In this document: one piece after another, positions 10,545-56,225 of the stretch
Numbering within the stretch: the stretch's first letter is position 1
Layout: the number at the start of each line of letters is the position of its first letter
NCBI GenBank assembly: GCA_904397865.1
Contig: CAJFOS010000013.1
Span: 1-64,000 of the forward strand
DNA: 64,000 bases
DNA from: Candidatus Allochristensenella caecavium
GTDB taxonomy: Bacteria; Bacillota; Clostridia; Christensenellales; QAND01
Direction: 5' to 3'
The notes under the pieces: generated by a model
What the model was told of the DNA's origin: nothing
The model's input: only the letters and a program-made list of their open reading frames with translations
Databases searched by the model: none
Made by a program: the position numbers and the translations under genes

Positions 10545-10558
10545 AGGGAGAACCTTGC

Positions 10559-11419
10559 ATGAAAAATGATGATTTAAAAAAGAACAAGAGAGTTTCCATC
10601 CTGTTGATAATCGTTTTTTTTGCAGGGTTGTTTTTACTGCTGTATCCAGTGGTCAGCGATTATTGGAACTCGCTGTATCAATCACGTGCTATTTCCTCTT
10701 ATGTAGATGTGGTGACGGAGATGGATGACGACTCGTATGAAGACATGTGGAAGCAAGCGCAGGCGTATAACGCCGCCCTGCAGGGCAATCCAAACCGTTT
10801 CCAGCCCAGTGAGGAGCAAAGGAAAAACGGTGAAAAGCTGTTGGATGTCACGGGGAATGGCATCATCGGCTATGTCGAAATTCCATCGATTGACGTCATG
10901 CTGCCCATTTATCACGGAACCGATGAGGAGGTTTTGCAAGTCGCCATTGGACATGTTGAAGGCTCCTCTCTCCCGATAGGCGGTGCAGGAACGCATTGTG
11001 TCATATCCGGTCACCGTGGGCTGCCTTCCTCCAGATTGTTTACCGACCTGGACCAGCTGGCGGAGGGAGATATCTTCATTCTGCGGGTGTTGGATGAAAC
11101 GCTGACCTATGAGGTGGACCAAATCCGCATTGTAGAGCCGGAGGATATCTCTTTATTGGGAATCGAAGAGGGGAAGGACTTTTGTACCTTGGTGACCTGT
11201 ACGCCGTATGGCGTCAATTCCCACCGCCTTTTGGTACGGGGCCATCGGGTAGAGAATCAGCAGACATTCCAAACGCTGCGCGTTACGGCGGATGCGATGC
11301 TGGTTGATGCACGCCTGGTTGCACCAATACTCGCAATCCCCATTCTGCTGGTTCTTGTATTGCTGGTGGCGCTGCGGCCGCTGATGAGAAAAAGAAAATC
11401 CGAAAGAGGTGATAAATAG
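10559..11419 (+). CDS. srtC: Class C (pilus-polymerising) sortase
   Basis: N-terminal TM. Catalytic His (VISGHRG). TLVTCTPYG Cys motif. LLVRGHRV Arg. C-terminal hydrophobic anchor plus KRK tail, typical of class C. Confidence 0.85.
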   Translation: MKNDDLKKNKRVSILLIIVFFAGLFLLLYPVVSDYWNSLYQSRAISSYVDVVTEMDDDSYEDMWKQAQAYNAALQGNPNRFQPSEEQRKNGEKLLDVTGNGIIGYVEIPSIDVMLPIYHGTDEEVLQVAIGHVEGSSLPIGGAGTHCVISGHRGLPSSRLFTDLDQLAEGDIFILRVLDETLTYEVDQIRIVEPEDISLLGIEEGKDFCTLVTCTPYGVNSHRLLVRGHRVENQQTFQTLRVTADAMLVDARLVAPILAIPILLVLVLLVALRPLMRKRKSERGDK

Positions 11420-12364: not shown

Positions 12365-12980
12365 AAGAAAAGGAGGAACAGCCCTTATAGCGCTCGGGCT
12401 GCTGCTCATTGCAGCGGCCCTTTTTCTAATCGGATATAATCTGTTTGACGAATACAGAGCCGGGAAAACGGCTCGCCGAGTATTGGCAATGCTGCGGGAA
12501 CAAGCCCCCATTGACGCTGGCATCCCGGAAGTATCGTCGCCGGGCAAGGAAGTCGTTCCAGATTACGTGCGCAACCCGGACATGGAGATGCCGACCAGAG
12601 AGGTTGAAGGCAATGATTATATCGGGATTTTAGAGATTCCGTCATTAGAGCTTTCTTTACCGGTGATGAGCAGATGGAGCTATCCCAAGCTGAAAATTGC
12701 GCCATGCCGCTACAGCGGCTCCGCTTACGAGGGAAACCTGACGATTGTAGCGCATAATTACCGCACCCACTTTGCATCGGTGCGAGATGTTCCGGTTGGG
12801 ACCCGGGTGCTGTTTACCGATGTAAAAGGGCGCATCTTTGCTTATGAGGTTGCGGCGATTGAAACAGTTGAAGCCAATGCCGTCCAGGAAGTGGTGAACG
12901 CTGCATGGGATTTGACGCTTGTTACTTGTACGCCAGGCGGGCAGGCCCGTGTCGCTGTGCGATGTGTAAAGGCGGGATAA
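12354..12980 (+). CDS. Second sortase-family transpeptidase
   Basis: N-terminal TM. His (IVAHNYRTHF). LTLVTCTPGG Cys motif. conserved Arg (ARVAVRC). Overlaps the basal pilin gene end. Confidence 0.7.
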   Translation: MESKRKGGTALIALGLLLIAAALFLIGYNLFDEYRAGKTARRVLAMLREQAPIDAGIPEVSSPGKEVVPDYVRNPDMEMPTREVEGNDYIGILEIPSLELSLPVMSRWSYPKLKIAPCRYSGSAYEGNLTIVAHNYRTHFASVRDVPVGTRVLFTDVKGRIFAYEVAAIETVEANAVQEVVNAAWDLTLVTCTPGGQARVAVRCVKAG

Positions 12981-25999: not shown

Positions 26000-26995
26000 A
26001 TGATTCGCTTTGAAGGATATGAACGCCGGATTGCCAAGATTGAAGCCGAGATGAAAAAATACGGCATCAACAGCTTGGAAGAGGCGAAAGAAATTTGTGA
26101 CCAGAAGGGTGTAGACGTGGACAGCATTGTCCGTGGCGTACAACCCATCTGCTTCGAAAATGCGGTATGGGCGTATACGCTGGGTGCAGCGATTGCAATT
26201 AAAAAAGGTTGCACCACGGCGGAAAAAGCGGCGGAAGCCATCGGCTTGGGTCTGCAGGCGTTCTGTGTGCCGGGTTCGGTAGCAGACCAGCGTAATGTAG
26301 GACTGGGGCATGGTAACCTGGCGGCGATGCTGCTGCGTGAAGAGACCAAATGCTTCTGTTTCCTGGCCGGGCACGAGTCCTTTGCGGCGGCCGAAGGTGC
26401 GATTGGCATTGCGCGTACGGCCAACAAGGTGCGTACGGAACCGTTGCGCGTCATCCTCAACGGCTTGGGCAAAGACGCGGCTTACATCATCAGCCGCATC
26501 AACGGCTTTACCTATGTGGATACGGAATACAACCAGGAGACGGGCGAGCTGACCATTAACTACGAAAAAGCATATTCCGATGGCGACCGTGGCAAGATTC
26601 GCTGCTATGGTGCGGATGATGTATCCGAAGGCGTAGCCATTATGCGCAAAGAAGGCGTGGATGTTTCCATCACGGGCAACTCCACCAATCCCACGCGCTT
26701 CCAGCATCCGGTAGCGGGCACCTATAAAAAATGGGCGACGGAGAATGGTGTAAAATATTTCTCCGTGGCTTCTGGTGGTGGCACGGGCCGTACGCTGCAC
26801 CCGGATAACATGGCGGCGGGTCCGGCTTCGTACGGCATGACCGATACCATGGGCCGCATGCATTCCGATGCGCAGTTCGCAGGTTCTTCCTCCGTTCCGG
26901 CGCACGTGGAAATGATGGGCCTCATTGGCATGGGCAACAACCCGATGGTTGGCGCGACGGTCGCAGTCGCCGTTGCGATTCAGGAAGCCAACTAA
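26000..26995 (+). CDS. GGGtGRT-family conserved hypothetical protein
   Basis: Contains the eponymous SGGGTGRTLHP motif. Several conserved Cys/His. 14 nt after the NifU-like gene, same strand. Confidence 0.6.
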   Translation: MIRFEGYERRIAKIEAEMKKYGINSLEEAKEICDQKGVDVDSIVRGVQPICFENAVWAYTLGAAIAIKKGCTTAEKAAEAIGLGLQAFCVPGSVADQRNVGLGHGNLAAMLLREETKCFCFLAGHESFAAAEGAIGIARTANKVRTEPLRVILNGLGKDAAYIISRINGFTYVDTEYNQETGELTINYEKAYSDGDRGKIRCYGADDVSEGVAIMRKEGVDVSITGNSTNPTRFQHPVAGTYKKWATENGVKYFSVASGGGTGRTLHPDNMAAGPASYGMTDTMGRMHSDAQFAGSSSVPAHVEMMGLIGMGNNPMVGATVAVAVAIQEAN

Positions 26996-40407: not shown

Positions 40408-41496
40408 ATGAAGAAAAGGGTCTACAACTTTTCAGCTGGCCCTGCGGTAATGCCGGAACCGGTCTTGCAGCAAGCGGCACAAGAACTCCTCTGCCACGGT
40501 GACGATGGTATGAGCGTCATGGAAATGTCCCACCGATCTTCGATGTTTACCAAGATTTTTGACGAAGCGGAAGCCAATCTGCGCACCTTGATGCACATTC
40601 CGGACAATTATAAGGTTCTGTTTTTGCAGGGCGGCGCTTCGCTTCAGTTTTCCATGATTCCGCTTAACCTGATGCAAAAGGGCCATGCGGATTATATCAA
40701 TACGGGCTCGTGGAGCAAAAAGGCAATCAAGGAAGCAAAAAAGGTCGGTGAAGTGAACATCGTTGCTTCCAGTGAAGAGCAAAACTTCAGTGAATTGCCG
40801 CAGATTGACGCGGCCAAGATGAACCCGGACGCGGATTACCTGTACATCGTGACCAACAACACGATTTACGGCACCTGTTATCCGGAACTGCCCAAACCGC
40901 CTGCGGGCGTGCCGCTGGTAGCGGACGCTTCGAGCAATATCCTTTCCCGGCCGTATGACATCAATGATTTTGGCCTGCTTTATTTCGGAGCGCAGAAAAA
41001 CGTCGGGCCTGCGGGACTGACGATTGTTATTGTACGTGAGGATTTAATTGGACACTGCCCGGCCAATACGCCCACCATGCTGGATTATCAGACGCATGCG
41101 GATAACGGGTCCATGTTCAATACCCCGCCTACCTTTGCCATTTATATGGCGGGCCTGGTCTTCAAGTGGATGCTGGATAACGGCGGCGTAGAGGCCATGT
41201 GGGAAACCAATAAGAAAAAGGCGGCGCTGTTGTATGACTATATTGACCAGAGCGGGTTTTATAAAGGTACAGTGACCAACAAAGCGCACCGTTCCATCAT
41301 GAATGTACCGTTTGTGTTGCCGGATGAAGCGCTCAACAAGCCGTTTTTAGAACAGGCGGAAGCACGGGGCCTGGTCAACTTGAAAGGCCACCGCAGCGTC
41401 GGTGGCATGCGCGCCTCGATTTACAATGCCATGCCGGTGGAAGGCGTACAGACGCTGGTGGATTTTATGCGTGAGTTTGCGCAGAGCCACCGTTAA
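40408..41496 (+). CDS. serC: 3-phosphoserine aminotransferase
   Basis: MKKRVYNFSAGPAVMPEPVL start after RBS GAAAGGAGAAAG. PLP-Lys region FGAQKNVGPAG. The track ORF starts earlier at 40294, with no RBS there. Confidence 0.9.
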   Translation: MKKRVYNFSAGPAVMPEPVLQQAAQELLCHGDDGMSVMEMSHRSSMFTKIFDEAEANLRTLMHIPDNYKVLFLQGGASLQFSMIPLNLMQKGHADYINTGSWSKKAIKEAKKVGEVNIVASSEEQNFSELPQIDAAKMNPDADYLYIVTNNTIYGTCYPELPKPPAGVPLVADASSNILSRPYDINDFGLLYFGAQKNVGPAGLTIVIVREDLIGHCPANTPTMLDYQTHADNGSMFNTPPTFAIYMAGLVFKWMLDNGGVEAMWETNKKKAALLYDYIDQSGFYKGTVTNKAHRSIMNVPFVLPDEALNKPFLEQAEARGLVNLKGHRSVGGMRASIYNAMPVEGVQTLVDFMREFAQSHR

Positions 41497-41517: not shown

Positions 41518-42693
41518 ATGAAAAAACGAATTGCGTTACTGAATAATATTTCGTCAATCATTTACAGCGCCTTTCCGGCGGACCGATATGAAGTCGGCAA
41601 GGACGTAGACGACCCGCAGGGCATTATTGTCCGCAGCGCAGACTGCAAGGAGATGCAGTTCAATCCCTCTTTGCTGGGAATTGCCCGTGCCGGCGTTGGG
41701 TATAACAACATCCCGATTGACCGCTGCACCGAAGCGGGGATTTGCGTATTCAACACCCCGGGCGCCAATGCGAACGCCGTTAAGGAATTGGTGCTCGCTT
41801 CGGCCATCATGGCGGGCCGCAACGTCTTTGAAGGCGTGCAATGGACGCAGAGCCTCAAGGGGACGGAGGGCGTCGAAAAAGCGGTGGAAGCCGGTAAAAA
41901 ACAGTTTGTCGGTCCGGAAATCAAAAACAAAAAACTGGGTGTCATCGGCCTGGGCGCTATCGGTGCCATGGTGGCCAACGATGCATATGCGCTGGGGATG
42001 GAAGTGATAGGATACGACCCGTTCCTGACGGTGGAAGCGGCTTGGACGCTGCACCGCAACATTCAACGCGCGGCAACGTTAGAGGCCCTGGTGGCGGATT
42101 GCGATATCATCACCATTCATATTCCGCTGATGGACAAAACGCGCAACATGATTGATGAAGAGATTTTCAACAAAATGCAGAAGGGGGCTATTTTGCTCAA
42201 CTTCGCGCGTGGCGGTTTGGTGGATGAGCAGGCCTTGAAGGTGGCGTTGGAAAAAGGGACGGTACGCAAGTACATCACGGATTTTCCCAACGATACCATC
42301 ATCAATTATCCCAATACCATCTGCGTACCGCATCTGGGTGCCTCTTCGCCGGAAAGCGAGGAAAATTGTGCAGAGATGGCTGCCGCTCAACTGTATGATT
42401 ACCTGCAGACGGGCAATATCCGCAATTCGGTCAATCTGCCGGCTTGCCAGCTGCCGCCGTATGAGGGTGGCCGCCTGACCATGATTCACAAGAACATGCC
42501 GAACATGGTCAGCCAGATTACCAGCGTATTGGCCAAGGAAAATGTCAACATCGCGCATATGAACAACCGCTCGCGCGGGGCGGTAGCATATACGATGATT
42601 GATGTCGACCAACCCGTGTCTGAACAGACGGTGGAAGCCATCAGTGCGATTGAAGGCATGATACGCGTACGCGTTATCAAAAGTGCTTATTGA
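41518..42693 (+). CDS. serA: D-3-phosphoglycerate dehydrogenase with C-terminal ACT domain
   Basis: NAD Rossmann GLGAIGAMVA, catalytic HIPLMDKTRNMI...FARGGLVDE...PHLGASS, C-terminal ACT. Confidence 0.9.
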   Translation: MKKRIALLNNISSIIYSAFPADRYEVGKDVDDPQGIIVRSADCKEMQFNPSLLGIARAGVGYNNIPIDRCTEAGICVFNTPGANANAVKELVLASAIMAGRNVFEGVQWTQSLKGTEGVEKAVEAGKKQFVGPEIKNKKLGVIGLGAIGAMVANDAYALGMEVIGYDPFLTVEAAWTLHRNIQRAATLEALVADCDIITIHIPLMDKTRNMIDEEIFNKMQKGAILLNFARGGLVDEQALKVALEKGTVRKYITDFPNDTIINYPNTICVPHLGASSPESEENCAEMAAAQLYDYLQTGNIRNSVNLPACQLPPYEGGRLTMIHKNMPNMVSQITSVLAKENVNIAHMNNRSRGAVAYTMIDVDQPVSEQTVEAISAIEGMIRVRVIKSAY

Positions 42694-42715: not shown

Positions 42716-42747
42716 ACAAACACCCGGTGGGAACCGGGTGTTTGTTT
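42716..42747 (+). terminator. Rho-independent terminator after serA
   Basis: acaaacacccggtgggaaccgggtgtttgttt. Confidence 0.7.
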
Positions 42748-42943
42748 CATCGAAAACAAAGCCGTGCGGGCATGCAGAGTGTACGCGCGAGCAAGGGCCG
42801 CTGCATGCGCCAAATAGAAGAATGTGCGTAAATTCCCAACAAATTATTGTTGCGTGCCGGTGTTGTACAGATGCGGCCAAAGACCGTATAAGCCACCATT
42901 TCATGCGTAAGCCTCTTTTTACATACGATTAATGGGACGCTGC

Positions 42944-42971
42944 TTGACAGAACGCAAGCTGTTTTCTATGC
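42944..42971 (+). promoter_or_regulatory. Candidate promoter for selD
   Basis: TTGACA-16 nt-TATGCT about 30 nt upstream of the selD start. Confidence 0.3.
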
Positions 42972-43000
42972 TTGGCATAAAGCAAAGGAGGAATACAGAC

Positions 43001-44038
43001 ATGGCCGACCGGATTCAACTGACCAAACTGGCACATTGTGCGGGTTGTGGTGCCAAAGTGGGGGCGGGCACGTTGAGTAAGATGCTCAAAAGCTTGCCCG
43101 TGCATCATGATGAACGCCTGCTGGTCGGATTTGATACCAGCGACGATTGTTCGGTTTATCAATTGACCGATGACTGTTGTGTCATTCAAACGCTGGATTT
43201 CTTCCCGCCGATTGTGGATGACCCGTATACGTTTGGGCAAATTGCAGCGGCCAATGCGCTCAGTGACATCTTTGCCATGGGTGCCGAACCAAAGCTGGCC
43301 ATGAACATTCTCTGTACGTCCACAAAGATGACGGACATGGATGTGCAAGCGCTGTTGCAGGGTGGTTATGAAAAGGTTTATGAAGCGGGCGCGCTGATTA
43401 CGGGCGGCCATTCTATCATGGGAGAGGAACCCAAATATGGTTTATCGGTCACTGGGTTTGCTCACCCGGAGGCTGTGCTGCTTAATTCCAAAGCCAAGCC
43501 GGGCGACTGCCTGATTCTGACAAAGCCGTTGGGGATTGGCATTTTGACTACCGCCGCCAAAGGGGAGCTGGTTGAACCCGAGCTGTATCAGCGGGCGGTT
43601 GTGCAGATGTGCACGCTCAATAAGCAAGCGCGGGATATTATGGTGCAGTATGAGGTGCACGCTTGTACGGATGTGACGGGATTTGGTCTGTTAGGACATG
43701 CGTATGAAATGGCACAGGGTGCGAAAGTGACGCTGGCGGTTCAGGCGGATGCTGTGCCGGTGCTGCCAGGCGTACGCACCTGGGCAGAGATGGGCCTGTT
43801 GCCCGAAGGCATGTACCGCAACCGCATGTTTGCCGAGCCGGGGGTGCACGCAGCGCCAGGTGTGGATGCAGCCTTGCAGGATATCCTATACGACCCCCAG
43901 ACATCCGGTGGGTTGTTGATAGCTGTTGCAGAAAAGCAAGCGGATGCGCTGTGCCGCCAGCTGGCGGACACCATTCCCTGTGCATGCATCATTGGGCAGG
44001 TCGAACCGCAGCAGGAGGCGTTTGTGCATCTTTCTTGA
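43001..44038 (+). CDS. selD: Selenide, water dikinase (selenophosphate synthetase), Cys-type
   Basis: N-terminal LTKLAHCAGCGAKVG aligns with E. coli HGAGCGCKI (Cys17 and Lys20 equivalents present, no in-frame TGA). AIR-synthase-like fold motifs. RBS AAAGGAGGAA. Confidence 0.85.
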   Translation: MADRIQLTKLAHCAGCGAKVGAGTLSKMLKSLPVHHDERLLVGFDTSDDCSVYQLTDDCCVIQTLDFFPPIVDDPYTFGQIAAANALSDIFAMGAEPKLAMNILCTSTKMTDMDVQALLQGGYEKVYEAGALITGGHSIMGEEPKYGLSVTGFAHPEAVLLNSKAKPGDCLILTKPLGIGILTTAAKGELVEPELYQRAVVQMCTLNKQARDIMVQYEVHACTDVTGFGLLGHAYEMAQGAKVTLAVQADAVPVLPGVRTWAEMGLLPEGMYRNRMFAEPGVHAAPGVDAALQDILYDPQTSGGLLIAVAEKQADALCRQLADTIPCACIIGQVEPQQEAFVHLS

Positions 44039-44050
44039 AGAGTGAAGATA

Positions 44051-44078
44051 AGCGCCGGCGAACAGCCGGCGCTTTTTT
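44051..44078 (+). terminator. Rho-independent terminator after selD
   Basis: agcgccggcgaacagccggcgcttttttg. Confidence 0.7.
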
Positions 44079-44148
44079 GTATAGGCTTGTATAGGCGAAT
44101 CAGGAAGCACCCCTTGCAAATTTCATCCAAATCCATATACTGGTAGTA

Positions 44149-44174
44149 GCGTTCTATTTTTAAAAATAGAACGC
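44149..44174 (+). promoter_or_regulatory. Perfect 26-bp palindrome, probable ModE operator
   Basis: GCGTTCTATTTTT|AAAAATAGAACGC, 19 nt upstream of the modE-like start. Resembles the E. coli ModE site CGnTATATA-N-TATATAnCG. Confidence 0.5.
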
Positions 44175-44192
44175 ATGGAAAGGAATGTTTGC

Positions 44193-44573
44193 ATGAACGA
44201 ACCCAGCTTGCAGTTCACGATGCGGCTACGGCTGTATCGCTCCGATTTCTTTTTTGGACCGGGTGTGGAAGAACTTTTTACCCGCATTGAACAGACCGGG
44301 TCCATCCAAAGAGCGGCGGCCGGTATGGAGATGTCTTACAGCAAAGCACTGCGGATGATTCGCCAGTTTGAACAGGAAATGGGCGTATCTGCTGTACAGC
44401 GGCACACAGGCGGCATCGGTGGCGGACATTCATCGCTGACGCCGGCGGGCAAAGCGTTTTTGCAGCAGTATATCGCGTTTAAGCAGGCTGTATACGAAGC
44501 GGCGGATGCGTTGTTTCCACAGTATTTTGGGCCGGCAAACGTACATGCAATCACAGGAGGGGAAGAAGAATGA
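44193..44573 (+). CDS. modE: ModE-family transcriptional regulator, N-terminal wHTH domain only
   Basis: GSIQRAAAGMEMSYSKALRMIRQFEQEMGVSAVQRHTGGIGGGHSSLTPAGKAFLQQY matches the ModE N-domain (GSISQGAK...SYKSAW...ERATGGKGGGGA.LT..G..L). No C-terminal TOBE/Mop domains (about 127 aa). Confidence 0.7.
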   Translation: MNEPSLQFTMRLRLYRSDFFFGPGVEELFTRIEQTGSIQRAAAGMEMSYSKALRMIRQFEQEMGVSAVQRHTGGIGGGHSSLTPAGKAFLQQYIAFKQAVYEAADALFPQYFGPANVHAITGGEEE

Positions 44574-45346
44574 AAAAGTGGATGAGTGGAGTATTGGCGC
44601 TTGGCGTGGCGTTGTGCCTGGTGGGCTGCGGCGGTGGTCAATCCGCTGAACCTGTGGAAATCCATGTTTCCGCGGCAGCGAGTTTGACGGACTGTATGAA
44701 CGAGCTCAAACAAATGTATGAAACCGAACATCAGGGTGTTACCATCACCTGCAACTACGGGTCCTCCGGCGCGCTGCAGCAGCAGATTGAGCAGGGAGCA
44801 CCGGCAGATCTGTTCTTTTCCGCAGGAAAAAAACAGATGACGGCCCTGCAGGACAAGCAGTTGATGGCGGACGATACCGTTTCCGATATGCTGGAAAACA
44901 AGGTTGTACTGATTACGCCGAAAGAAGGCGGGCAGGCATTGGCGGATTTCCAGGCATTAAAAGGGAATTCGATTCGCAAAATCGCCGCAGGTGACCCGGC
45001 CAGCGTGCCGGTAGGCCAGTATACGGAAGAGATTTTTAAAAACCTGGATTTGCAGGACGCACTCACGGAAAAACTTGTGTCGATGTCGGATGTGCGGGCG
45101 GTGCTTTCGGCGGTTGAAACGGGCAATGCGGATGCGGGTATCGTATATGAAACCGATGCCAAAATCAGTGATAACGTGCAGATTTGCTGCCAGGCGCCTA
45201 GTGGCTCTCATACACAGGTCATCTATCCCATCGGGTTGACGGTAGAAGGAGCCAAAAATGAGGCCGCCCAGGATTTTCTGACCTTTTTAAAGAGCGAACA
45301 GGCAAGGCAGATATTTATTCAATACGGCTTTACGCCTGTGCAATAA
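44570..45346 (+). CDS. modA: Molybdate ABC transporter substrate-binding lipoprotein
   Basis: Lipobox LVGCGG. ModA fold motifs (VSAAASLTD...YGSSGAL...DLFFSA). Start overlaps the modE stop. Confidence 0.85.
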   Translation: MKKWMSGVLALGVALCLVGCGGGQSAEPVEIHVSAAASLTDCMNELKQMYETEHQGVTITCNYGSSGALQQQIEQGAPADLFFSAGKKQMTALQDKQLMADDTVSDMLENKVVLITPKEGGQALADFQALKGNSIRKIAAGDPASVPVGQYTEEIFKNLDLQDALTEKLVSMSDVRAVLSAVETGNADAGIVYETDAKISDNVQICCQAPSGSHTQVIYPIGLTVEGAKNEAAQDFLTFLKSEQARQIFIQYGFTPVQ

Positions 45347-45355
45347 GAGGTTCGT

Positions 45356-46039
45356 ATGGCTTTTGATGTCTCTCCGTTATGGATTTCCCTGCGTACGTCG
45401 GTGTGCGCAGGGGTCATTGTTTTTGTGCTCGGTCTTTGCTGTGCGCGTGCATGTTTATACGCAAAAGGCTGGGTCAAATGGTTGACGGACGTGCTGTTTA
45501 CCCTCCCGCTTGTGCTGCCACCGACAGTGCTGGGCTATTTTTTACTGATTGCCATTGGGAAAAACAGCCCGTTGGGACAGGTTTTGATGCAGTGGGACGT
45601 TTCGCTGATTTTTACCTGGCCGGCAACGGTGATTGCCGCAGTCGTTGTTGCATTTCCGCTGATGTATCGGGCGGCCAAGGGCGCGCTGGAACAGGTGGAT
45701 ATGGATATGGTCTGGGCAGCGCGCACACTGGGCATGAATGAATGGCGGATTTTCATACGCATCATGCTGCCGCAGGCATGGCCGGGCATCGCGGCCGGGC
45801 TGGTGCTGGCGTTTGCACGGGCGTTGGGTGAATTTGGCGCAACGATGATGATTGCCGGCAACATCCCCGGCCAGACGCAGACCATTCCCATGGCCATTTA
45901 TTTTGCGACCGCCGCAGGAAACATGCGGACTGCGGGCATCTGGGTGGCTATTATCACAGCGGTGTCCTGTTTGGCGTTGGCGGTTATGCAGTATTACCAG
46001 GCGCGTGCAGCCCGTACCCGCGGAAAGGGACTTTCATGA
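45356..46039 (+). CDS. modB: Molybdate ABC transporter permease
   Basis: 5-6 TM. EAA-like loop ARTLGMNEWRIFIRIMLPQAWPGI. Confidence 0.85.
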   Translation: MAFDVSPLWISLRTSVCAGVIVFVLGLCCARACLYAKGWVKWLTDVLFTLPLVLPPTVLGYFLLIAIGKNSPLGQVLMQWDVSLIFTWPATVIAAVVVAFPLMYRAAKGALEQVDMDMVWAARTLGMNEWRIFIRIMLPQAWPGIAAGLVLAFARALGEFGATMMIAGNIPGQTQTIPMAIYFATAAGNMRTAGIWVAIITAVSCLALAVMQYYQARAARTRGKGLS

Positions 46040-47043
46040 GCGTTTATGTGGACATACAGAAAAACCTGGGTTCCTTTGCGCTGGATATTCGGCTTCAGGC
46101 TGGACCCGGTATCATGGGTATTTTGGGCGCTTCCGGCAGCGGAAAAAGCATGACGCTGCGTTGCCTGGCGGGGGCGGTTACGCCGGATGCAGGTCGTGTT
46201 GTGCTGAACGACCGTGTATTGTTTGACGCCGGGCAAAATATCAACCTGCCGGCACGTGAACGGCGTGTGGGACTGATGTTTCAAAACTACGCGTTGTTTC
46301 CGCATATGACGGTGGAACAGAATATTGCCAGCGGCATCCGGGAAAGAGAACGCCGGGAAGATATTTTAATGCGCTATCTGTCTTTGTTGCAACTGGAACC
46401 GTTGCGTCAGCGCAGGCCTTCGCAGCTCTCCGGCGGGCAGCAGCAAAGGGTAGCCTTGGCGCGCATGATGGCGAGTGAGCCGCAACTGATGATGCTCGAT
46501 GAGCCGTTTTCGGCTCTGGATATGCATCTGCGTGAACAGATTGAACCGGCATTGCTGCACGCGCTACAGGCGTATAAGGGAACGGTGTTGTACGTTTCGC
46601 ACAACATGGAAGAATTATATCGCATCTGTTCAACGGTGTTGGTCATTGAACAGGGCCATGTCATTGAGCAGGGGCCGACGCGCACGTTGTTTCGTCGCCC
46701 CAAACGGGTGGAAACCGCCCGGCTTCTATCCTGCCGAAACCTTTCGCCGGTGTGCAATGGAAGGACACACTGGGGGATAAGTTTGCCGGTACAGACGTCG
46801 CATGTGGGCATCTTTGGGGAAAACGTACACCTGCTAAGCGCAGCGCAACCGGATGCCTGGCCTGCAAGCGTGGTGTCGATACAGGAGGAACGCAGCCAAT
46901 GCGTCATATCGGTGCAGCTGACCGCCTCGGGCGTGCCGCTTCAGGCCATTTGCCCATTGGGATACCGCGAGCGATGGGGCTTGGGCCAGTCGGTATATGT
47001 ACGCGTCCAAAAGGACGATATGCTTCCTTTACAGGGGAAATAA
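46036..47043 (+). CDS. modC: Molybdate ABC transporter ATP-binding protein with C-terminal TOBE domain
   Basis: Walker A GASGSGKS, signature LSGGQQQRVALAR, Walker B LMMLDEP, about 120-aa C-terminal Mop/TOBE extension. Confidence 0.85.
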   Translation: MSVYVDIQKNLGSFALDIRLQAGPGIMGILGASGSGKSMTLRCLAGAVTPDAGRVVLNDRVLFDAGQNINLPARERRVGLMFQNYALFPHMTVEQNIASGIRERERREDILMRYLSLLQLEPLRQRRPSQLSGGQQQRVALARMMASEPQLMMLDEPFSALDMHLREQIEPALLHALQAYKGTVLYVSHNMEELYRICSTVLVIEQGHVIEQGPTRTLFRRPKRVETARLLSCRNLSPVCNGRTHWGISLPVQTSHVGIFGENVHLLSAAQPDAWPASVVSIQEERSQCVISVQLTASGVPLQAICPLGYRERWGLGQSVYVRVQKDDMLPLQGK

Positions 47044-47067: not shown

Positions 47068-47883
47068 TTATTTTGAGCTCTTGGCTTCATCACGATGTAT
47101 TTCATCAGCCAAAGCCGCATGCCTGGTAAAAAATGTTTTGTATCCGAGTGTGACAAACAGCACGACCGTCAGCGCCGTACAGCCCAGAATGGCCAGCATG
47201 ATACCGATTTGGTATTTAATTGCAGTGAGGGGAAACGTACCGGACAAAATTTGGCCAGTCATCATACCGGGCAAGGAAACGATGCCCATGGTAAGCATGT
47301 TGTTCATCGTGGGCAGGATGGCGCTGTCAAACGCATCGTTGACCACTTCATGCGCGGCCATCGCCGGCGTAGCGCCCAGCATCAATGAATTTTCAATCAT
47401 GGCGCGCTTGCTTCGCATTTCACTGCACAGCTTGTCGGCTCCCAATGCGATACCGGTCATGGAGTTGCCGATAATCATACCGGAGATAGGGATACAGTAC
47501 TGTGGGTCGAACCATGGCTGAATCCGCAGTACAATTAAAATGAAAACAGCGGCTGCGACCGCATAGCCGGCCATCATGGATAGGGCCATCAACCGGATAA
47601 GTGCAGGCGGCATGGCCGTTTTGACGCGTTTGTATGCGTTGTAGATGGCAAAGAACAGCATGACGGCCAGCATGAGCAACGTCAGCCACCAGCTTGGGTT
47701 TTCAAACACAAACATCAGCACATACCCCATCAGGGTCAGCTGAACGGTCATGCGCGTGGTGGCAATGAGTATCTGCCGTTCCCGGCGGATGCCGCGCCGT
47801 TTGAAAATAACCAGCAGCACCAGTACAAATATATAGGCAATGGCTAGGTTTAGCACGGGTAAATCCATCACGGCGTTATGCAT
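47068..47883 (-). CDS. fetB: Iron-export ABC permease FetB (YbbM/UPF0014 family)
   Basis: 7 TM. Family-typical 271 aa. Paired with the upstream ATPase. Confidence 0.7.
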   Translation of the reverse strand: MHNAVMDLPVLNLAIAYIFVLVLLVIFKRRGIRRERQILIATTRMTVQLTLMGYVLMFVFENPSWWLTLLMLAVMLFFAIYNAYKRVKTAMPPALIRLMALSMMAGYAVAAAVFILIVLRIQPWFDPQYCIPISGMIIGNSMTGIALGADKLCSEMRSKRAMIENSLMLGATPAMAAHEVVNDAFDSAILPTMNNMLTMGIVSLPGMMTGQILSGTFPLTAIKYQIGIMLAILGCTALTVVLFVTLGYKTFFTRHAALADEIHRDEAKSSK

Positions 47884-48619
47884 GTGCAGCCCCTCCTATC
47901 CGCCCCTTTTCAATGCGGATACACGCATCCGCATACCGCGCCGCTATCTGTTGGGAATGCGTGACCATAATCAGGTGTTTGCCGCGGCTTTGCACAAAAT
48001 GTTCCAGGCTTTGGATGATGAATTGTTCTGTCTGCGGGTCGAGTGCGGCAGAGGGCTCGTCCAGCAAATAGGTTTGGGCATCCATCAGTAAGACGCGAGC
48101 CAGGCACAGCCGTTGACGCTCCCCGCCGGAAAGGGTGTCGCAATACGCCTGCAATGGCTGCGCGAGCCCCACCTGTTCGAGCATGTAGGCCAGTGTATCT
48201 CGGGTAGCAGGCGGCTTTTGTGCAAAACGCAGGCCAATTTGTAGATTCTCTTCGATTGTGCCGCTATAGATTACAGGAGTCTGTCCCAGCATGACTACCT
48301 GGCGGCGCAGCACAATGGGGTCAATATCGTCCAACGAAACACCTTGATAATCAATCGTCCCGCTATCCGGCACATACAAACGGTTCAGGTGTCGTAAAAG
48401 CGTTGTCTTACCGCTGCCTGAGGCGCCCACGATACAGGTAACTGGGTGGGTGATGGTCAGATGGGGGATATCCAGAATCCGTTTATAAATCAAATGGTCA
48501 ATGGTAAAAACCGGAACCTGTCCCATGATGCCTCCTTGTACAATCTCTTGCATGTCCGTCATGGCGGTAAAGGCGGGCCTCATAGAAAGAGCAAAGCCTT
48601 TTCCATGCGTTATAGACAA
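47876..48619 (-). CDS. fetA: ABC transporter ATP-binding protein FetA/YbbL-like
   Basis: Walker A GASGSGKTT, LSGGERQRLCLAR, Walker B YLLDEP. No TM. Confidence 0.75.
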   Translation of the reverse strand: MSITHGKGFALSMRPAFTAMTDMQEIVQGGIMGQVPVFTIDHLIYKRILDIPHLTITHPVTCIVGASGSGKTTLLRHLNRLYVPDSGTIDYQGVSLDDIDPIVLRRQVVMLGQTPVIYSGTIEENLQIGLRFAQKPPATRDTLAYMLEQVGLAQPLQAYCDTLSGGERQRLCLARVLLMDAQTYLLDEPSAALDPQTEQFIIQSLEHFVQSRGKHLIMVTHSQQIAARYADACIRIEKGRIGGAAHA

Positions 48620-52585: not shown

Positions 52586-53521
52586 ATGGCAAAGCCAACG
52601 GCCGCACAGATTGCAGAAGTCAAAGCAAAAGGTTTTTTACACAATCGTGGAACGGAATGCTTTTCCGGCCGCGCGATTACGGAAAATGGCGTACTGACGG
52701 CAGCCCAACTGAAAAATTTAGCGGAATGTGCAGAAAAATATGGAAATGGGACGGTGACCTTCACCACGCGATTGACGGTGGAGATGCCCGGCATTCATTT
52801 CGATGATATCCCGGCTGTGCAGGCGCACGTTGCGCAGGAAGGGATGATAACGGGAGGAACGGGCGCAAAAGTGCGTCCGGTCGTAGCTTGCAAGGGGACC
52901 ACATGCGTCTACGGGAATTTTGATACGCAGGCGTTGGCTAAGGAAATCCACGACCGGTACTTTATGGGATGGAGCGAGGTGCGGCTGCCACATAAATTCA
53001 AGATTGCGGTTGGGGGATGTCCGAATAGCTGCTTGAAGCCAAGTTTGAATGACTTTGGGATTGAAGGACACAGCCATCTGATGGTGGATATGGCAAAATG
53101 CCGGCATTGCAAACGATGTTTGGTAGCGGAGCGATGCCCGATGAAGGCCGTGCAGGTGGTTGACGGCGCGCCCGTGCGCGATGAAAAGTTATGCACGACC
53201 TGCGGCGTTTGTACGCGGACGTGCCCGTTTGGCGCTTACAGCAGCCAGGGCGATGCGCTGTATCGGATTTTTGTCGGAGGGACATGGGGCAAAAAGACGC
53301 GTATGGGGACGGCGCTATCCCGCCTGGTGACACGGGAGGAGATTTTTCCGCTGCTGGAAAAGACCATGTTGTGGTTCAAGGAGAATGCGTATCAGAAGGA
53401 ACGTCTGGGTGCGGCGATTGACCGCGTAGGTGTGGACAAGCTGGAAGCCGCGCTGTTTGCGGATGACCTTATGAAAAGAAAAGAAGAAATCTTGGCAGCA
53501 CCGATTTTACAACGGGGGTAA
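52586..53521 (+). CDS. Nitrite/sulfite-reductase-family protein with siroheme/4Fe-4S motif and 2x[4Fe-4S] ferredoxin insert (AsrC-like small sulfite reductase)
   Basis: KIAVGGCPNSC siroheme-[4Fe-4S] Cys motif. CRHCKRCLVAERCP and CTTCGVCTRTCP ferredoxin motifs. RBS AAAGGGGAGGAA. Confidence 0.6.
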   Translation: MAKPTAAQIAEVKAKGFLHNRGTECFSGRAITENGVLTAAQLKNLAECAEKYGNGTVTFTTRLTVEMPGIHFDDIPAVQAHVAQEGMITGGTGAKVRPVVACKGTTCVYGNFDTQALAKEIHDRYFMGWSEVRLPHKFKIAVGGCPNSCLKPSLNDFGIEGHSHLMVDMAKCRHCKRCLVAERCPMKAVQVVDGAPVRDEKLCTTCGVCTRTCPFGAYSSQGDALYRIFVGGTWGKKTRMGTALSRLVTREEIFPLLEKTMLWFKENAYQKERLGAAIDRVGVDKLEAALFADDLMKRKEEILAAPILQRG

Positions 53522-53523
53522 AA

Positions 53524-54447
53524 ATGCAGAAAAAGAGACGGTGGATGGGCGGATGTTTGGCCTGTCTGCTATTATTGGCAGGCTGTAGCGCGCAGCTGGA
53601 GAAGCCGCAAGCGGAGGGCGTTTCCTTTACCGACGCCAATGGCAATGCGGTAACGGTAGCCTCGCATGACCGTGTTGTATCGCTGTATGGCTCATTTGCG
53701 CAGACATGGATGTTGGCAGGCGGGACGCTGGTTGGAACAACTTCGGATGCGATTGAGGAAAGGAAGCTGGATTTGGGCGAGGGCGTGCAAAATATTGGCA
53801 CGGTCAAACAACCCAACTTGGAGGCTGTGTTTGCCCTGGAACCGGACTTTGTCATCCTCAGCGCGGATATTGAAGCGCAGGCAAAATTGGACGCACCGCT
53901 TACACAGGCGGGAATTGCCCATGCCTATTTCCGAGAGGATTCACTGGAAGAATACTTATCCATGCTACAGCTGTTCTGTTCGATGACCGGCCGGGCAGAT
54001 TGCTATCAGCAATATGGAGCGGAGGTAGAGCAGCAGATTGAGCAGGTGGTGGCATCGGTACAGGGAAAACCGGCGCCCACAGTATTGTTGTTACGTGCGT
54101 ACTCATCGGGCGTAAAAGCTAAAACGGATGATAATTTAGCAGGTGTTATCCTCAAAGACCTGGGGTGTGATAACATCGCCGACCGGGTGCCGTCGCTTTT
54201 GGAAGAATTGAGCCTGGAAGCCATTGTCGCAGAGGACCCGGATTTTATCTTTGTCACAACCATGGGGGATGAACAGAAGGCATTGGACGCGCTGGAGGCC
54301 AATATGCAGACGCAGCCCGCATGGCAGGGGCTAACGGCGGTCAAAGAAGGTCGTTATGTAGTTCTGCCAAAAGATTTATTCCACTATAAACCCAATAACC
54401 GCTGGGGAGAAAGTTATGCGTATCTGGCCGATATCCTCTATCCATAA
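53524..54447 (+). CDS. ABC transporter substrate-binding lipoprotein, class III (Fe-siderophore/cobalamin/heme-type, BtuF/FecB-like)
   Basis: Lipobox LLLAGCSA. PBP fold with V(V)SLYGSFAQTWML...DFVILSADI layout. Confidence 0.7.
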   Translation: MQKKRRWMGGCLACLLLLAGCSAQLEKPQAEGVSFTDANGNAVTVASHDRVVSLYGSFAQTWMLAGGTLVGTTSDAIEERKLDLGEGVQNIGTVKQPNLEAVFALEPDFVILSADIEAQAKLDAPLTQAGIAHAYFREDSLEEYLSMLQLFCSMTGRADCYQQYGAEVEQQIEQVVASVQGKPAPTVLLLRAYSSGVKAKTDDNLAGVILKDLGCDNIADRVPSLLEELSLEAIVAEDPDFIFVTTMGDEQKALDALEANMQTQPAWQGLTAVKEGRYVVLPKDLFHYKPNNRWGESYAYLADILYP

Positions 54448-55462
54448 ACATCCTTCGAGAAAAACGACAGCCGTCCGCAACCGCGGATGGCTCTTTGCTG
54501 TGCCAGTGGCGCTAGCGGCTGTAGGGATAGTGAGCGTATGCGTGGGCGCTTCGGGCGTGTCCATCGGCCAAAGCCTGCATGCGCTTTTACAGGGTGATAC
54601 GCAGAGCGTGGCGTATCGGGTGCTGATGTATATTCGTCTGCCGCGGCTGTTAGGGGCGGTGCTGGCTGGCGCTGCACTTGCGGCTAGCGGCACGCTGATT
54701 CAGGCCGTGTTGCACAATCCGCTGGCGGGGCCCAACGTTATTGGCGTAAACGCAGGCGCAGGCTTTTTCGCCCTGTTGGGGATTTTATGCTTTCCTGGCG
54801 TGCAGGCAGCTGTACCAACGCTTGCGTTTATCGGCGCGTTGTTTACCTGCTTGCTGATTTATGGAATTGCACAGCGAACCGGCGCTTCCCGTTTAACGCT
54901 GGTGCTCGCCGGCATTGCAATCAGTGGGATTCTGGGTGCGGGCATCGATACCATTACTACGCTGGATGCAGATGTGCTTTTGCAGTATCAAAGTTTCCGC
55001 ATCGGCGGATTTTCCGGGCTCTCCTTTTCCATGTTGCAACCGGCTGTCTGGTATATTGGATTGGGGTTGATAGCTGCACTTTGCTGCGGAGCAGATATGA
55101 ACGTACTGATGCTGGGGGAACAGACGGCGGCCAGTTTGGGGTTGCACGTGCGCCGGATACGGTTTTTGCTTTTGACAACGGCGGCGGTATTGGCCGGCAG
55201 CGCGGTTAGTTTTGCTGGACTGCTGGGTTTTGTAGGGTTGATTGTACCGCATATCTGCCGACAGATTTGGGGCGAGGACCACCGCATCCTATTGCCGGCG
55301 TCCATGGGTGTGGGTGCGCTGTTTGTACTGCTGTGCGATTTGCTTAGCCGCGTTTTATTTATTCCGTATGAAATACCGGTGGGTATTCTGATGTCGTTGA
55401 TTGGTGGCCCATTTTTCCTCTGGTTACTTTTTCGGTATAGAAGGGGGCGTGCGCATGATTGA
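54416..55462 (+). CDS. FecCD-family ABC permease
   Basis: MYIRLPRLLGAVLAGAALAASGTLIQAVLHNPLAGPNVIGV signature. 9-10 TM. Confidence 0.8.
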   Translation: MRIWPISSIHKHPSRKTTAVRNRGWLFAVPVALAAVGIVSVCVGASGVSIGQSLHALLQGDTQSVAYRVLMYIRLPRLLGAVLAGAALAASGTLIQAVLHNPLAGPNVIGVNAGAGFFALLGILCFPGVQAAVPTLAFIGALFTCLLIYGIAQRTGASRLTLVLAGIAISGILGAGIDTITTLDADVLLQYQSFRIGGFSGLSFSMLQPAVWYIGLGLIAALCCGADMNVLMLGEQTAASLGLHVRRIRFLLLTTAAVLAGSAVSFAGLLGFVGLIVPHICRQIWGEDHRILLPASMGVGALFVLLCDLLSRVLFIPYEIPVGILMSLIGGPFFLWLLFRYRRGRAHD

Positions 55463-56225
55463 AGTTTGCCAGCTGTGCGCCGGCTATGCAGACCGCACGG
55501 TGTTAAAGCAGCTTTCCTTTACGATTGAGCCGGGCGAATGGGTGACGATTGTGGGGCGCAATGGAAGCGGCAAGTCCACCCTGCTGCGTTCGATGGCCCG
55601 GCTGTTGCCGCCTTTGCAGGGAGATATTCGCCTGCAAGGGAAACCCCTGGTTGATTACGGCCGTAAAGAGCTGGCGCGCACCGTCTCGGTTTTACCGCAA
55701 AGCCGTGATGTACCATCCATCAGTGTGGAGGGTCTTGTCAGCCATGGCCGATTTCCCTATCTGGGTTTATCACGCAGATTAACGGAAGAGGATGAACAAA
55801 AGATTGAGTATGCGCTCTGTTGCACCGGTGCGCAGGCATACCGGCATAGGCTGCTGCAGGAACTATCCGGCGGAGAGCGGCAGAAAGCGTATCTGGCAAT
55901 GACCATTGCCCAGGATGCGCCCGTTCTTTTTCTGGATGAACCGACGACCTATTTGGACATTGCAACACAATTTGAACTGCTTGCATTGATTGACCGCTTG
56001 CATAAAAAGGGGAAGACTATTGTCATGGTGCTGCACGATTTACAGCAGGCGCTGGCTGTCAGCCAACGTATGTTGCTTTTGGAACAGGGACGGCTGGTGC
56101 AGTTTGCACCGCCGGAAGAGATGATACGGAGCGGCGCGCTGCAGGAGTGCTTTTCGATACGGATTGAATCAGTTCGAAGCAAAAGCGGATGCACGCACTA
56201 CTGTTTTGAACCAAAAGACCGGTGA
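55455..56225 (+). CDS. ABC transporter ATP-binding protein (FecE/BtuD-like)
   Basis: Walker A GRNGSGKST, LSGGERQKAYLAM, Walker B LFLDEPT. Start MIEVCQL overlaps the permease gene end. Confidence 0.8.
   Translation: MIEVCQLCAGYADRTVLKQLSFTIEPGEWVTIVGRNGSGKSTLLRSMARLLPPLQGDIRLQGKPLVDYGRKELARTVSVLPQSRDVPSISVEGLVSHGRFPYLGLSRRLTEEDEQKIEYALCCTGAQAYRHRLLQELSGGERQKAYLAMTIAQDAPVLFLDEPTTYLDIATQFELLALIDRLHKKGKTIVMVLHDLQQALAVSQRMLLLEQGRLVQFAPPEEMIRSGALQECFSIRIESVRSKSGCTHYCFEPKDR

What the first reader, a model, noticed from the sequence alone, without database searches (positions are those of the whole stretch)
43001..47043. Cys-type selD immediately followed by modE-like plus modABC: possible selenium-molybdenum link (orphan-SelD scenario)
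selD has its own promoter and terminator. The very next transcription unit is a molybdate regulator and importer. No selA, selB, tRNA-Sec or 2-selenouridine synthase is seen in this 64-kb window. When selD occurs without those genes, the known third use of selenophosphate is a labile Se cofactor on molybdenum hydroxylases (xanthine/purine dehydrogenase family). Physical linkage of selD to Mo uptake would fit that model. serC-serA (the serine supply for a Sec pathway) lie just upstream, which keeps the classical pathway possible.
Basis: inference. Interest (0 to 1): 0.5.

Follow-up and report, generated by a model that had tools for sequence, protein, structure and literature searches.

The report
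selD beside a molybdate-uptake operon
A selenophosphate synthetase gene sits directly upstream of a molybdate regulator and importer operon in an uncultured gut Clostridia bacterium; relatives show this reflects the already known selenium-molybdenum enzyme pathway, but this genome's own use of selenium could not be checked.

Summary
Window 43001-47043 holds a monocistronic Cys-type selD, then a translationally coupled operon of a 126-aa ModE-N-terminal-like regulator plus modA, modB and modC.

The 64-kb window contains no selA, selB, selU, yqeB, yqeC, xdh-family gene or tRNA-Sec.

The selenium-molybdenum reading is partly supported, by comparison only.
- This SelD lies at the base of an all-Cys clade of Clostridia SelDs.
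- In 21 of 26 related loci, selD sits beside yqeB/yqeC, the markers of selenium-dependent molybdenum hydroxylase maturation.
- In 11 of 26, modA and modB lie within about 10 kb.
- In 45 loci of more distant SelDs, mostly Sec-type, both counts are 0.
- ModE-N-only regulators also recur inside xdh-yqeB-selD clusters.

Two limits remain. First, selD and the mod operon are separate transcription units; a sister species conserves each promoter, the selD terminator and a mod-only palindromic operator. Nothing indicates co-regulation. Second, the "orphan" claim could not be tested, because no whole genome of this organism was reachable.

The underlying biology (SelD + YqeB + YqeC, Haft & Self 2008; Zhang et al. 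2008) is already described. This is a rearranged new member of a known kind, of low to modest interest.

The parts
40408..41496 (+). serC (phosphoserine transaminase). Upstream neighbour, not part of the Se-Mo feature.
   Evidence: NF003764 at 556 bits. The gene call in L001 gives the start.
41518..42693 (+). serA (phosphoglycerate dehydrogenase with ACT domain).
   Evidence: Pfam 2-Hacid_dh_C and ACT; TIGR01327 at 265 bits, below its 454 cutoff. serC-serA is next to selD only in this species and its sister species, and in none of the more distant relatives.
42718..42750 (+). Hairpin plus T-rich tail after serA (ACAAACACCCGG-TGGGAA-CCGGGTGTTTGT); a putative terminator.
   Evidence: Read directly from the sequence. 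The sister species has a different hairpin at the same place.
42944..42972 (+). selD promoter-like site: TTGACA, 17 nt, TATGCT.
   Evidence: Matches 10 of 12 consensus positions. The block from -35 to the RBS is conserved in the sister species L135, while the rest of the spacer is unalignable.
43001..44038 (+). selD: selenide, water dikinase (selenophosphate synthetase), Cys-type, monocistronic.
   Evidence: TIGR00476 at 399 bits and NF002098 at 343 bits. Aligns with PDB 3U0O, Cys16/Lys19 matching E. coli Cys17/Lys20. Lies at the base of the all-Cys clade.
44050..44081 (+). Intrinsic terminator of selD: 10-bp stem with 8 G-C pairs, then a T-run.
   Evidence: The stem is conserved in L135.
44114..44141 (+). 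Promoter-like site of the mod operon: TTGCAA, 16 nt, TATACT.
   Evidence: Both hexamers are conserved in L135.
44149..44174 (.). 26-nt perfect palindrome GCGTTCTATTTTT|AAAAATAGAACGC just downstream of the -10 hexamer. Putative operator of the ModE-like repressor.
   Evidence: Unique in the window; 0 matches expected by chance. Perfectly conserved in L135. Absent upstream of selD and absent from more distant relatives. The operator role is inferred.
44193..44573 (+). ModE-N-terminal-like winged-HTH regulator, 126 aa, with no Mop/TOBE molybdate-binding domains.
   Evidence: TIGR00637 at 59.7 bits (cutoff 98.5); Pfam HTH_1 at 41 bits. It is 38% identical to the homologue inside the xdh-yqeC-yqeB-selD cluster of L014 and 35% to that of L141. 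The start was chosen from the RBS GGAAAGGAA and matches the gene call in L001.
44570..45346 (+). modA: molybdate-binding lipoprotein.
   Evidence: TIGR01256 at 206 bits (cutoff 62.5). ATGA overlap with the regulator gene.
45356..46039 (+). modB: permease.
   Evidence: TIGR02141 at 234 bits (cutoff 182.6).
46036..47043 (+). modC-like ABC ATPase.
   Evidence: TIGR02142 at 216 bits (cutoff 285). Only residues 4-222 match, and no TOBE domain was detected in the C-terminal ~110 aa. 4-nt overlap with modB.

Best explanation
Architecture. The region holds three independent transcription units.
1. serC-serA.
2. A monocistronic Cys-type selD, which makes selenophosphate from selenide and ATP.
3. An autoregulated operon of a short ModE-N-terminal-type repressor plus the ModABC molybdate importer. 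I infer it is controlled through a 26-nt palindromic operator overlapping its promoter.

Most likely role. The adjacency is probably a rearranged remnant of a gene neighbourhood conserved in related Clostridia (Oscillospirales-type). There, selD sits with yqeC, yqeB and an xdhC-like gene, which mature the labile Se ligand on the molybdenum cofactor. It also sits with sclA, yedE, yedF and DUF3343 (selenium supply), and with modABC, moa/moe/mog and sometimes xdh genes.

On this reading, SelD supplies selenophosphate to YqeB/YqeC encoded elsewhere in the genome. These selenate the Mo cofactor of xanthine-dehydrogenase-family hydroxylases, while ModABC provides the molybdate.

Shown versus inferred. 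Gene identities, unit boundaries and the neighbourhood statistics in relatives are shown. The use of selenophosphate in this organism, the existence of yqeB, yqeC and a selenium-dependent hydroxylase elsewhere in its genome, and the repressor-operator pairing are inferred.
For: - Gene identities.
- Separate units with conserved promoter, terminator and operator footprints in a sister species.
- SelD tree: the window protein is basal in an all-Cys clade (LTKLAxCAGCGAKVGAG), and nearly all more distant SelDs are Sec-type.
- Neighbourhood counts. In Cys-clade loci with at least 5 kb of flank (n=26), yqeB/yqeC occur in 21, modA+modB in 11 and selA/selB in 1. In other SelD loci (n=45) the counts are 0, 0 and 10. 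Fisher p=3e-6 for modAB, not corrected for phylogeny.
- The modABC-selD proximity occurs in at least three different arrangements. It is downstream in the Gemmiger/Subdoligranulum type, upstream in the Oscillibacter type, and immediately adjacent here.
- NCBIfam confirms YqeB (TIGR03309, 335-359 bits) and YqeC (TIGR03172, 138-143 bits) in L014 and L019. In L014 alone it also confirms Se-dependent XDH (TIGR03311, 1064 bits), xdhABC and an EF2568-type desulfurase. YedE was confirmed in L016.
- L062 carries mogA-modCBA-moeA-MOSC-moaC-moaA next to yqeC-yqeB-selD.
- The closest relatives with usable context (67-69% SelD identity) carry yqeC-yqeB-xdhC-selD-yedE-yedF.
- ModE-N-only genes lie inside the xdh-yqeB-selD clusters of L014 and L141. 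E. faecalis has the equivalent EF2572 (PMC2432076).
- C. difficile shows that yqeB, yqeC and selD can be dispersed and still work together genetically (PMC11448449).
Against: - No yqeB, yqeC, xdhC, sclA, yedE/yedF, Moco-biosynthesis gene or Mo hydroxylase occurs anywhere in the 64 kb, nor in the few kb beyond each end that could be reached (about 3 kb on the right, up to 8 kb on the left).
- selD has its own promoter and terminator and lacks the mod operator, so nothing ties its expression to molybdenum.
- The immediate selD-modE-modABC arrangement was seen only in this species and one sister species (90% SelD identity).
- Two loci at 59-65% identity (L137, L138) have only the general selenium-supply genes, and L018 has selA-selB nearby.
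- The window SelD is basal to the yqeBC-linked group, not nested inside it.
- The neighbourhood statistics are not phylogenetically independent.
Confidence: 0.5

Rival explanations
1. selD serves the classical selenocysteine pathway (or the selenouridine pathway), with selA, selB, selC or selU elsewhere in the genome. Any selenium-molybdenum connection would then run through a Sec-containing Mo/W formate dehydrogenase rather than a labile-Se hydroxylase. This can coexist with the best explanation, because many Clostridia have more than one selenium trait.
For: - L018, an Oscillospiraceae MAG inside the same Cys clade (63% identity), has selA-selB and a MocA-like gene 4-8 kb downstream of selD.
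- L009 (Acetobacterium fimetarium, 61% identity) has no yqeB/yqeC within 10 kb.
- Two thirds of organisms with the Se-cofactor markers also have the Sec or SeU trait (PMC2432076).
- serC-serA upstream supply serine, although this adjacency is not conserved beyond the genus.
Against: - No selA, selB, selU or tRNA-Sec occurs in the 64 kb.
- Only 1 of 26 Cys-clade loci has selA/selB nearby, against 21 with yqeB/yqeC.
- No SelU homologue was found in any fetched locus.
- A Cys-type SelD does not itself require Sec decoding.
Confidence: 0.25
2. The adjacency has no functional meaning. selD landed next to the mod operon by rearrangement, and the two units simply happen to be neighbours.
For: - The units are separate, with their own promoters and a strong terminator between them, and share no operator.
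- The exact arrangement is restricted to one genus-level lineage.
- serC-serA on the other side is also an unrelated neighbour.
Against: modA+modB lie within about 10 kb of selD in 11 of 26 related loci, in at least two other gene orders, and in 0 of 45 loci of other SelD clades. With one mod operon per genome of about 3 Mb, chance proximity would be under 1% per genome (my inference). ModE-like genes also recur in selD clusters (PMC2432076).
Confidence: 0.18
3. A true orphan SelD with another or unknown selenophosphate use, for example selenoneine or selenosugar synthesis, or an undescribed Se-Mo chemistry that does not need YqeB or YqeC.
For: At least 26 bacteria with SelD and no known selenium trait have been reported (PMC5029168). 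In this lineage selD has been separated from all usual partner genes.
Against: No senA/senB-like genes flank selD; its neighbours are serA and the mod operon. The SelD sequence is a typical member of the clade used by yqeBC systems. There is no positive evidence of any kind for this reading.
Confidence: 0.05

Closest known systems
Selenium-cofactor trait, i.e. the selenium-dependent molybdenum hydroxylase (SDMH) maturation system: SelD + YqeB (EF2563, TIGR03309) + YqeC (EF2564, TIGR03172). Haft & Self 2008 (PMC2276186); Zhang et al. 2008 (PMC2432076).
   Same: - A Cys-type SelD from the same clade as the SelDs embedded in yqeC-yqeB-selD clusters.
- Physical association with molybdenum genes.
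- A ModE-type HTH neighbour, as EF2572 is in E. faecalis.
- A Clostridia host seen only in metagenome and sequencing-run assemblies; the relatives recovered come largely from gut and rumen MAGs.
   Different: Here only selD and the Mo-uptake genes are together. yqeB, yqeC, xdhC, sclA, yedE/yedF and the hydroxylase are absent from the 64 kb. The ModE-like gene heads a modABC operon rather than sitting between xdh and yqeB. Whether the trait is present in this genome is untested.
Clostridioides difficile dispersed arrangement of selD, yqeB and yqeC (PMC11448449).
   Same: selD is not adjacent to yqeB or yqeC. In C. difficile, selD and yqeB mutants nevertheless share the same xanthine/urate growth defect, so dispersal does not exclude the trait.
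   Different: C. difficile also has the Sec trait and known selenium-dependent hydroxylase candidates. Nothing comparable is known for the window organism.
E. coli ModE-modABC regulation.
   Same: An HTH of the ModE N-terminal type, a palindromic AT-rich site overlapping the mod promoter, and ABC importer genes modA, modB and modC.
   Different: The regulator has 126 aa and no Mop/TOBE molybdate-sensing domains. It is the first gene of the mod operon rather than divergently transcribed. It scores below the TIGR00637 cutoff, and ModC lacks a detectable TOBE domain. How molybdate would be sensed is unknown.
Oscillospirales 'selenium island' seen in relatives here (L139, L140, L141, L016, L062).
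   Same: A homologous SelD (59-69% identity) and homologous modABC (34-56% identity).
   Different: The relatives keep yqeC-yqeB-xdhC-selD-sclA-yedE-yedF-DUF3343 together. In the window lineage selD is isolated between serA and the mod operon.

Membership tests
SelD (selenide, water dikinase; TIGR00476) | Score above the curated cutoff, with AIRS N- and C-terminal domains. | tested here: met
   TIGR00476 at 399 bits against a 125 cutoff; NF002098 at 343 against 299; PF00586 and PF02769 both hit.
SelD (selenide, water dikinase; TIGR00476) | Catalytic Cys or Sec, and Lys, in the N-terminal Gly-rich loop (E. coli Cys17 and Lys20). | tested here: met
   The alignment to 3U0O places Cys16 and Lys19 at those positions, with Ala at the Cys19 position.
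SelD (selenide, water dikinase; TIGR00476) | ATP-dependent selenophosphate synthesis. | not testable with these tools
   Needs an enzyme assay.
Se-cofactor trait (SDMH maturation: SelD+YqeB+YqeC) | yqeB (TIGR03309) present in the genome. | tested here: inconclusive
   Absent from the 64-kb window at E<=0.01. Present next to selD in 21 of 26 related loci.
Se-cofactor trait (SDMH maturation: SelD+YqeB+YqeC) | yqeC (TIGR03172) present in the genome. | tested here: inconclusive
   Same as for yqeB.
Se-cofactor trait (SDMH maturation: SelD+YqeB+YqeC) | A xanthine-dehydrogenase-family Mo hydroxylase (for example TIGR03311) as client enzyme. | tested here: inconclusive
   None in the window. Present in the relative L014.
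Orphan SelD (SelD without the Sec and SeU traits) | Genome-wide absence of selA, selB, tRNA-Sec and selU. | not testable with these tools
   They are absent from the window. The species is not among the GTDB representatives, and only metagenome contigs were found.
ModE (molybdate-responsive regulator) | N-terminal winged-HTH domain (TIGR00637). | tested here: inconclusive
   59.7 bits, E=2e-16, but below the 98.5 cutoff; PF00126 HTH_1 at 41 bits.
ModE (molybdate-responsive regulator) | C-terminal tandem Mop/TOBE molybdate-binding domains. | tested here: not met
   The protein has 126 aa and matches only the N-terminal part of full-length ModE (NF007957, profile positions 9-103 of 263).
ModABC molybdate ABC importer | ModA (TIGR01256) and ModB (TIGR02141) above cutoff, in one operon with an ABC ATPase. 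| tested here: met
   206 bits against 62.5, and 234 bits against 182.6. The genes are overlapping or contiguous.
ModABC molybdate ABC importer | ModC equivalog (TIGR02142), including the C-terminal TOBE regulatory domain. | tested here: not met
   216.5 bits against a 285 cutoff. Only the ABC domain (residues 4-222) matches, and there is no TOBE hit. By position it is still the operon's ATPase.

The most novel reading that the evidence does not exclude
In this genus SelD would be a true orphan, with no yqeB/yqeC, selA/selB/selC or selU anywhere in the genome. Its retention next to the Mo-uptake operon would then point to a selenophosphate-dependent step in molybdenum cofactor chemistry or molybdoenzyme maturation that works without the known YqeB/YqeC accessory proteins. 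Alternatively, the short ModE-N-only regulators that recur in selD clusters would form a dedicated Mo-responsive regulon for selenium-dependent enzymes.
Probability: 0.05. Interest if true: 0.6.

Novelty: new member of a known kind. Interest (0 to 1): 0.2.

Why it matters
If the inference holds, this uncultured Clostridia lineage is one more carrier of the selenium-dependent molybdenum hydroxylase trait. That trait underlies anaerobic purine and urate degradation in the gut (PMC11448449; bioRxiv 10.1101/2025.04.24.650524, seen only as a title).

The comparison also gives a modest general point. In Oscillospirales-type genomes selD, yqeB/yqeC, selenium-supply genes, Moco-biosynthesis genes and modABC form a loose but recurrent super-neighbourhood. 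ModE-N-only regulators are repeatedly part of it. That could guide annotation and regulon studies.

It does not open a new question. The Se-Mo link, its marker genes and even the ModE neighbour were described in 2008.

Tried and rejected
1. **Finding the organism's own yqeB.** I searched the 5.8-billion-protein collection with a profile of 11 relatives' YqeB proteins. More than 8000 candidates scored, and only the top 120 are listed. The one hit whose source and contig statistics resembled the window's proteins (P0032) belongs to another organism that has its own selD next to it. YqeB proteins of relatives are only 51-57% identical to each other. The target would therefore not rank among the listed hits, and I ran no further search on it.

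2. **Walking off both window ends**. This gave only housekeeping genes: rho, L31 and prmC on one side, PFOR on the other.

3. **Looking for the species in public collections.** Neither the GTDB representative genomes nor the JGI metagenomes hold a SelD above 64% identity.

4. **Trying to recover the NCBI assembly accession** that holds the identical SelD. It was not shown.

5. **Testing whether the mod operator palindrome also precedes selD or occurs in relatives**. It does neither.

6. **Apparent close SelD relatives P0136-P0139** (562-616 bits). These are assembly artefacts with internal duplications; their true identity is 59-65%.

7. **The promoter/terminator scan as evidence.** Rejected on its own, because its counts equal the shuffle expectation. 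I replaced it with footprinting against the sister species.

8. **A selenoneine (senABC-type) context.** Considered from my own knowledge of that pathway, and rejected because the neighbours do not fit.

Full report
**What is there.**

- serC is at 40408-41496 and serA at 41518-42693.
- selD is at 43001-44038 (TIGR00476, 399 bits against a 125 cutoff).
- A 126-aa ModE-N-terminal-like HTH gene is at 44193-44573. It scores 59.7 bits on TIGR00637, below the cutoff, and has no Mop/TOBE domains.
- modA is at 44570-45346 (TIGR01256, 206 bits) and modB at 45356-46039 (TIGR02141, 234 bits).
- A modC-like ATPase is at 46036-47043 (TIGR02142, 216 bits, below cutoff; only the ABC domain matches).
- Downstream, on the opposite strand, lie a FetB-like permease and an ABC ATPase (47068-48619).

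Alignment to E. coli SelD (PDB 3U0O) puts Cys16 and Lys19 at the catalytic Cys17 and Lys20 positions, so the enzyme is Cys-type.

The host carries sortase-dependent pilus genes and SpoIID, which suggests a Gram-positive, spore-forming lineage. Its G+C content is about 53%.

**Transcription units.**

The regulator gene overlaps modA by 4 nt, and modB overlaps modC by 4 nt. These four genes form one operon.

selD is followed by a 10-bp, G+C-rich hairpin with a T-run at 44050-44074. It is preceded by TTGACA-17-TATGCT at 42944-42972. The consensus scan by itself is no evidence, because its counts equal the shuffle expectation.

Footprinting gives the real support. A contig from a sister species (L135, SelD 90% identical) has the same gene order. 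In spacers that are otherwise unalignable it conserves exactly these elements:
- the selD -35/-10/RBS block;
- the selD terminator stem;
- the mod promoter hexamers TTGCAA and TATACT;
- a 26-nt perfect palindrome, GCGTTCTATTTTTAAAAATAGAACGC, at 44149-44174.

The palindrome is unique in the window, with 0 matches expected by chance. It is absent upstream of selD and absent from more distant relatives. I read it as the operator of the ModE-like repressor; this is an inference.

selD and the mod operon are therefore neighbours but separately controlled.

**What is not there.**

ARAGORN and Rfam find only a tRNA-Arg. tblastn at E<=0.01 finds nothing in the 64 kb. The queries were E. coli SelA, SelB, SelU, YqeB, YqeC, XdhA-D, YgfK, SsnA, YgfM and MocA, plus the SelA, SelB, YqeB and YqeC of relatives.

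Pfam annotation of the remaining genes shows housekeeping and surface functions only. The few kb reachable beyond each end add rho, L31 and prmC on one side and PFOR on the other.

**Where it comes from.**

The identical SelD occurs on about 10 metagenome or read-archive contigs, including ENA ERZ28618296 scaffold_72 (169.6 kb). It is also flagged as present in NCBI, without a name. No genome of the species is among the GTDB representatives. Neither the GTDB scan nor the JGI metagenome scan holds a SelD above 64% identity.

The genome-wide test that the finding calls for could therefore not be run.

**Comparative evidence.**

I fetched 113 SelD loci in all: 50 from genomes, 57 from metagenomes and 6 by exact-protein look-up. 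I screened them by tblastn.

A neighbour-joining tree places the window SelD at the base of a clade whose members are all Cys-type and share the motif LTKLAxCAGCGAKVGAG. Nearly all more distant SelDs are Sec-type.

| Loci with at least 5 kb of flank | n | yqeB/yqeC present | modA+modB present | selA/selB present |
|---|---|---|---|---|
| Cys clade | 26 | 21 | 11 | 1 |
| Other SelD loci | 45 | 0 | 0 | 10 |

Fisher p is 3e-6 for modAB, not corrected for phylogeny.

NCBIfam confirms the identities in relatives.
- Oscillibacter sp. PC13 (L019) has YqeC (TIGR03172, 138 bits) and YqeB (TIGR03309, 359 bits) directly upstream of selD. Its modCBA lies about 1.2-6 kb upstream of yqeC (3-7 kb from selD).
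- A Clostridiales MAG (L014) has Se-dependent XDH (TIGR03311, 1064 bits), xdhABC, a ModE-like gene, yqeC, yqeB, selD and an EF2568-type desulfurase. This matches the E. faecalis cluster.
- L062 has mogA-modCBA-moeA-MOSC-moaC-moaA abutting yqeC-yqeB-selD.
- In the Subdoligranulum locus L016, NCBIfam shows selD followed by sclA and yedE, with yqeC, yqeB and modABC located by tblastn. The Gemmiger/Subdoligranulum loci L010-L013 share the selD, yqeC, yqeB, modABC order by tblastn.
- After artefactual duplicated sequences are removed, the closest relatives with usable context (67-69% identity) carry yqeC-yqeB-xdhC-selD(-sclA)-yedE-yedF-DUF3343.
- L141 has a ModE-N-only gene between a Fer2_2-domain gene (by its position likely xdhC) and a yqeB homologue-selD.

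Counter-examples exist.
- L018 has selA-selB near selD.
- L009, L137 and L138 lack yqeB/yqeC within 10 kb.

**Interpretation.**

The selenium-molybdenum association of this SelD lineage is real. It recurs in several gene orders. The window's arrangement is most economically read as a rearranged remnant of that neighbourhood. On this reading SelD feeds a YqeB/YqeC-dependent selenation of the Mo cofactor of xanthine-dehydrogenase-family enzymes, and ModABC supplies the molybdate.

C. difficile shows that selD, yqeB and yqeC can be dispersed and still share a selenium-dependent purine phenotype (PMC11448449). Absence of yqeB/yqeC next to selD is therefore not evidence against the trait.

Nothing in the window, however, proves that the trait exists in this organism. 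The units are separately regulated. A Sec pathway elsewhere, possibly serving a Mo/W formate dehydrogenase, would fit equally well with a Se-Mo neighbourhood.

My estimates are about 0.5 for the hydroxylase reading, 0.25 for a Sec/SeU use (which is not exclusive of the first), 0.18 for meaningless adjacency and 0.05 for a true orphan or new chemistry.

**Comparison with what is known.**

The third selenium trait (SelD + YqeB + YqeC) and its link to Mo hydroxylases were described in 2008 (PMC2276186; PMC2432076). That work already lists a ModE gene (EF2572), a MobA-related gene and XdhC among the selD neighbours.

Later surveys defined the trait by the co-occurrence of SelD, YqeB and YqeC. They also reported true orphans (PMC5029168).

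I found no mention of molybdate transporters in the three of these papers I text-searched (PMC2276186, PMC2432076 and PMC5322559). The frequent modABC/moa proximity in Oscillospirales is thus a small addition rather than a new principle.

**Verdict.**

- This is a new member of a known kind.
- Interest is about 0.2.

Noticed in passing
L049 4801-5760 and 5861-6883; also L050, L051, L053, L055 and L120 (Coriobacteriia/Eggerthellaceae loci): Two adjacent selD-family genes lie next to selA/selB. The first is Sec-type (GGUAAKWGPG). The second is 31-38% identical to the window SelD and has Ala, Thr, Ser or Trp where Sec/Cys should be (GAAAKW, GGTTAKW, GGSASKW, GGWAAKW). This may be a non-catalytic or differently functioning SelD paralogue.
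   Followed up: no
window 44149-44174: A 26-nt perfect palindrome just downstream of the mod promoter. It is perfectly conserved in a sister species whose spacer has otherwise diverged, and is a likely operator for a ModE-N-only regulator. How a regulator without Mop domains would sense molybdate is unexplained.
   Followed up: partly
L014 8070-8411 (-) and L141 1094-1447 (-): Short ModE-N-only HTH genes sit next to yqeC/yqeB-selD in two unrelated MAGs: in L014 just after xdhC, in L141 just after a Fer2_2-domain gene. They are 35-38% identical to the window's regulator, and E. faecalis EF2572 occupies a comparable position. This suggests a recurrent regulator of selenium-dependent hydroxylase clusters.
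   Followed up: partly
L139, L140, L141 and L016 (relatives): A conserved 'selenium island': yqeC-yqeB-xdhC-like-selD-sclA-yedE-yedF(TusA)-DUF3343. None of these partner genes is in the window.
   Followed up: partly
P0136-P0139 (ENA/NCBI proteins; loci L137, L138, L141): SelD proteins of 434-472 aa contain internal duplications of about 100-140 residues. These are probably assembly or gene-call artefacts. They inflate bit scores and mimic close relatives.
   Followed up: yes
window 3530-12980: A sortase-dependent pilus locus: signal peptidase, a 1527-aa Cna_B adhesin, a pilin backbone subunit, two sortases and a second Cna_B protein. A histidine kinase and response regulator pair precedes it at 227-2332.
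   Followed up: no
window 47068-48619 (-): A FetB-like UPF0014 permease and a FetA-like ABC ATPase (putative metal exporter) converge on modC with a spacer of only 24 nt.
   Followed up: no
window 52586-56225: A small nitrite/sulfite-reductase-like protein (NIR_SIR, 311 aa) is followed by a Peripla_BP_2/FecCD/ABC importer. The pairing is conserved on other contigs of the species.
   Followed up: no
window 26000-26995: A very strong match to the uncharacterised GGGtGRT family (PF14057, 648 bits). Its function is unknown.
   Followed up: no
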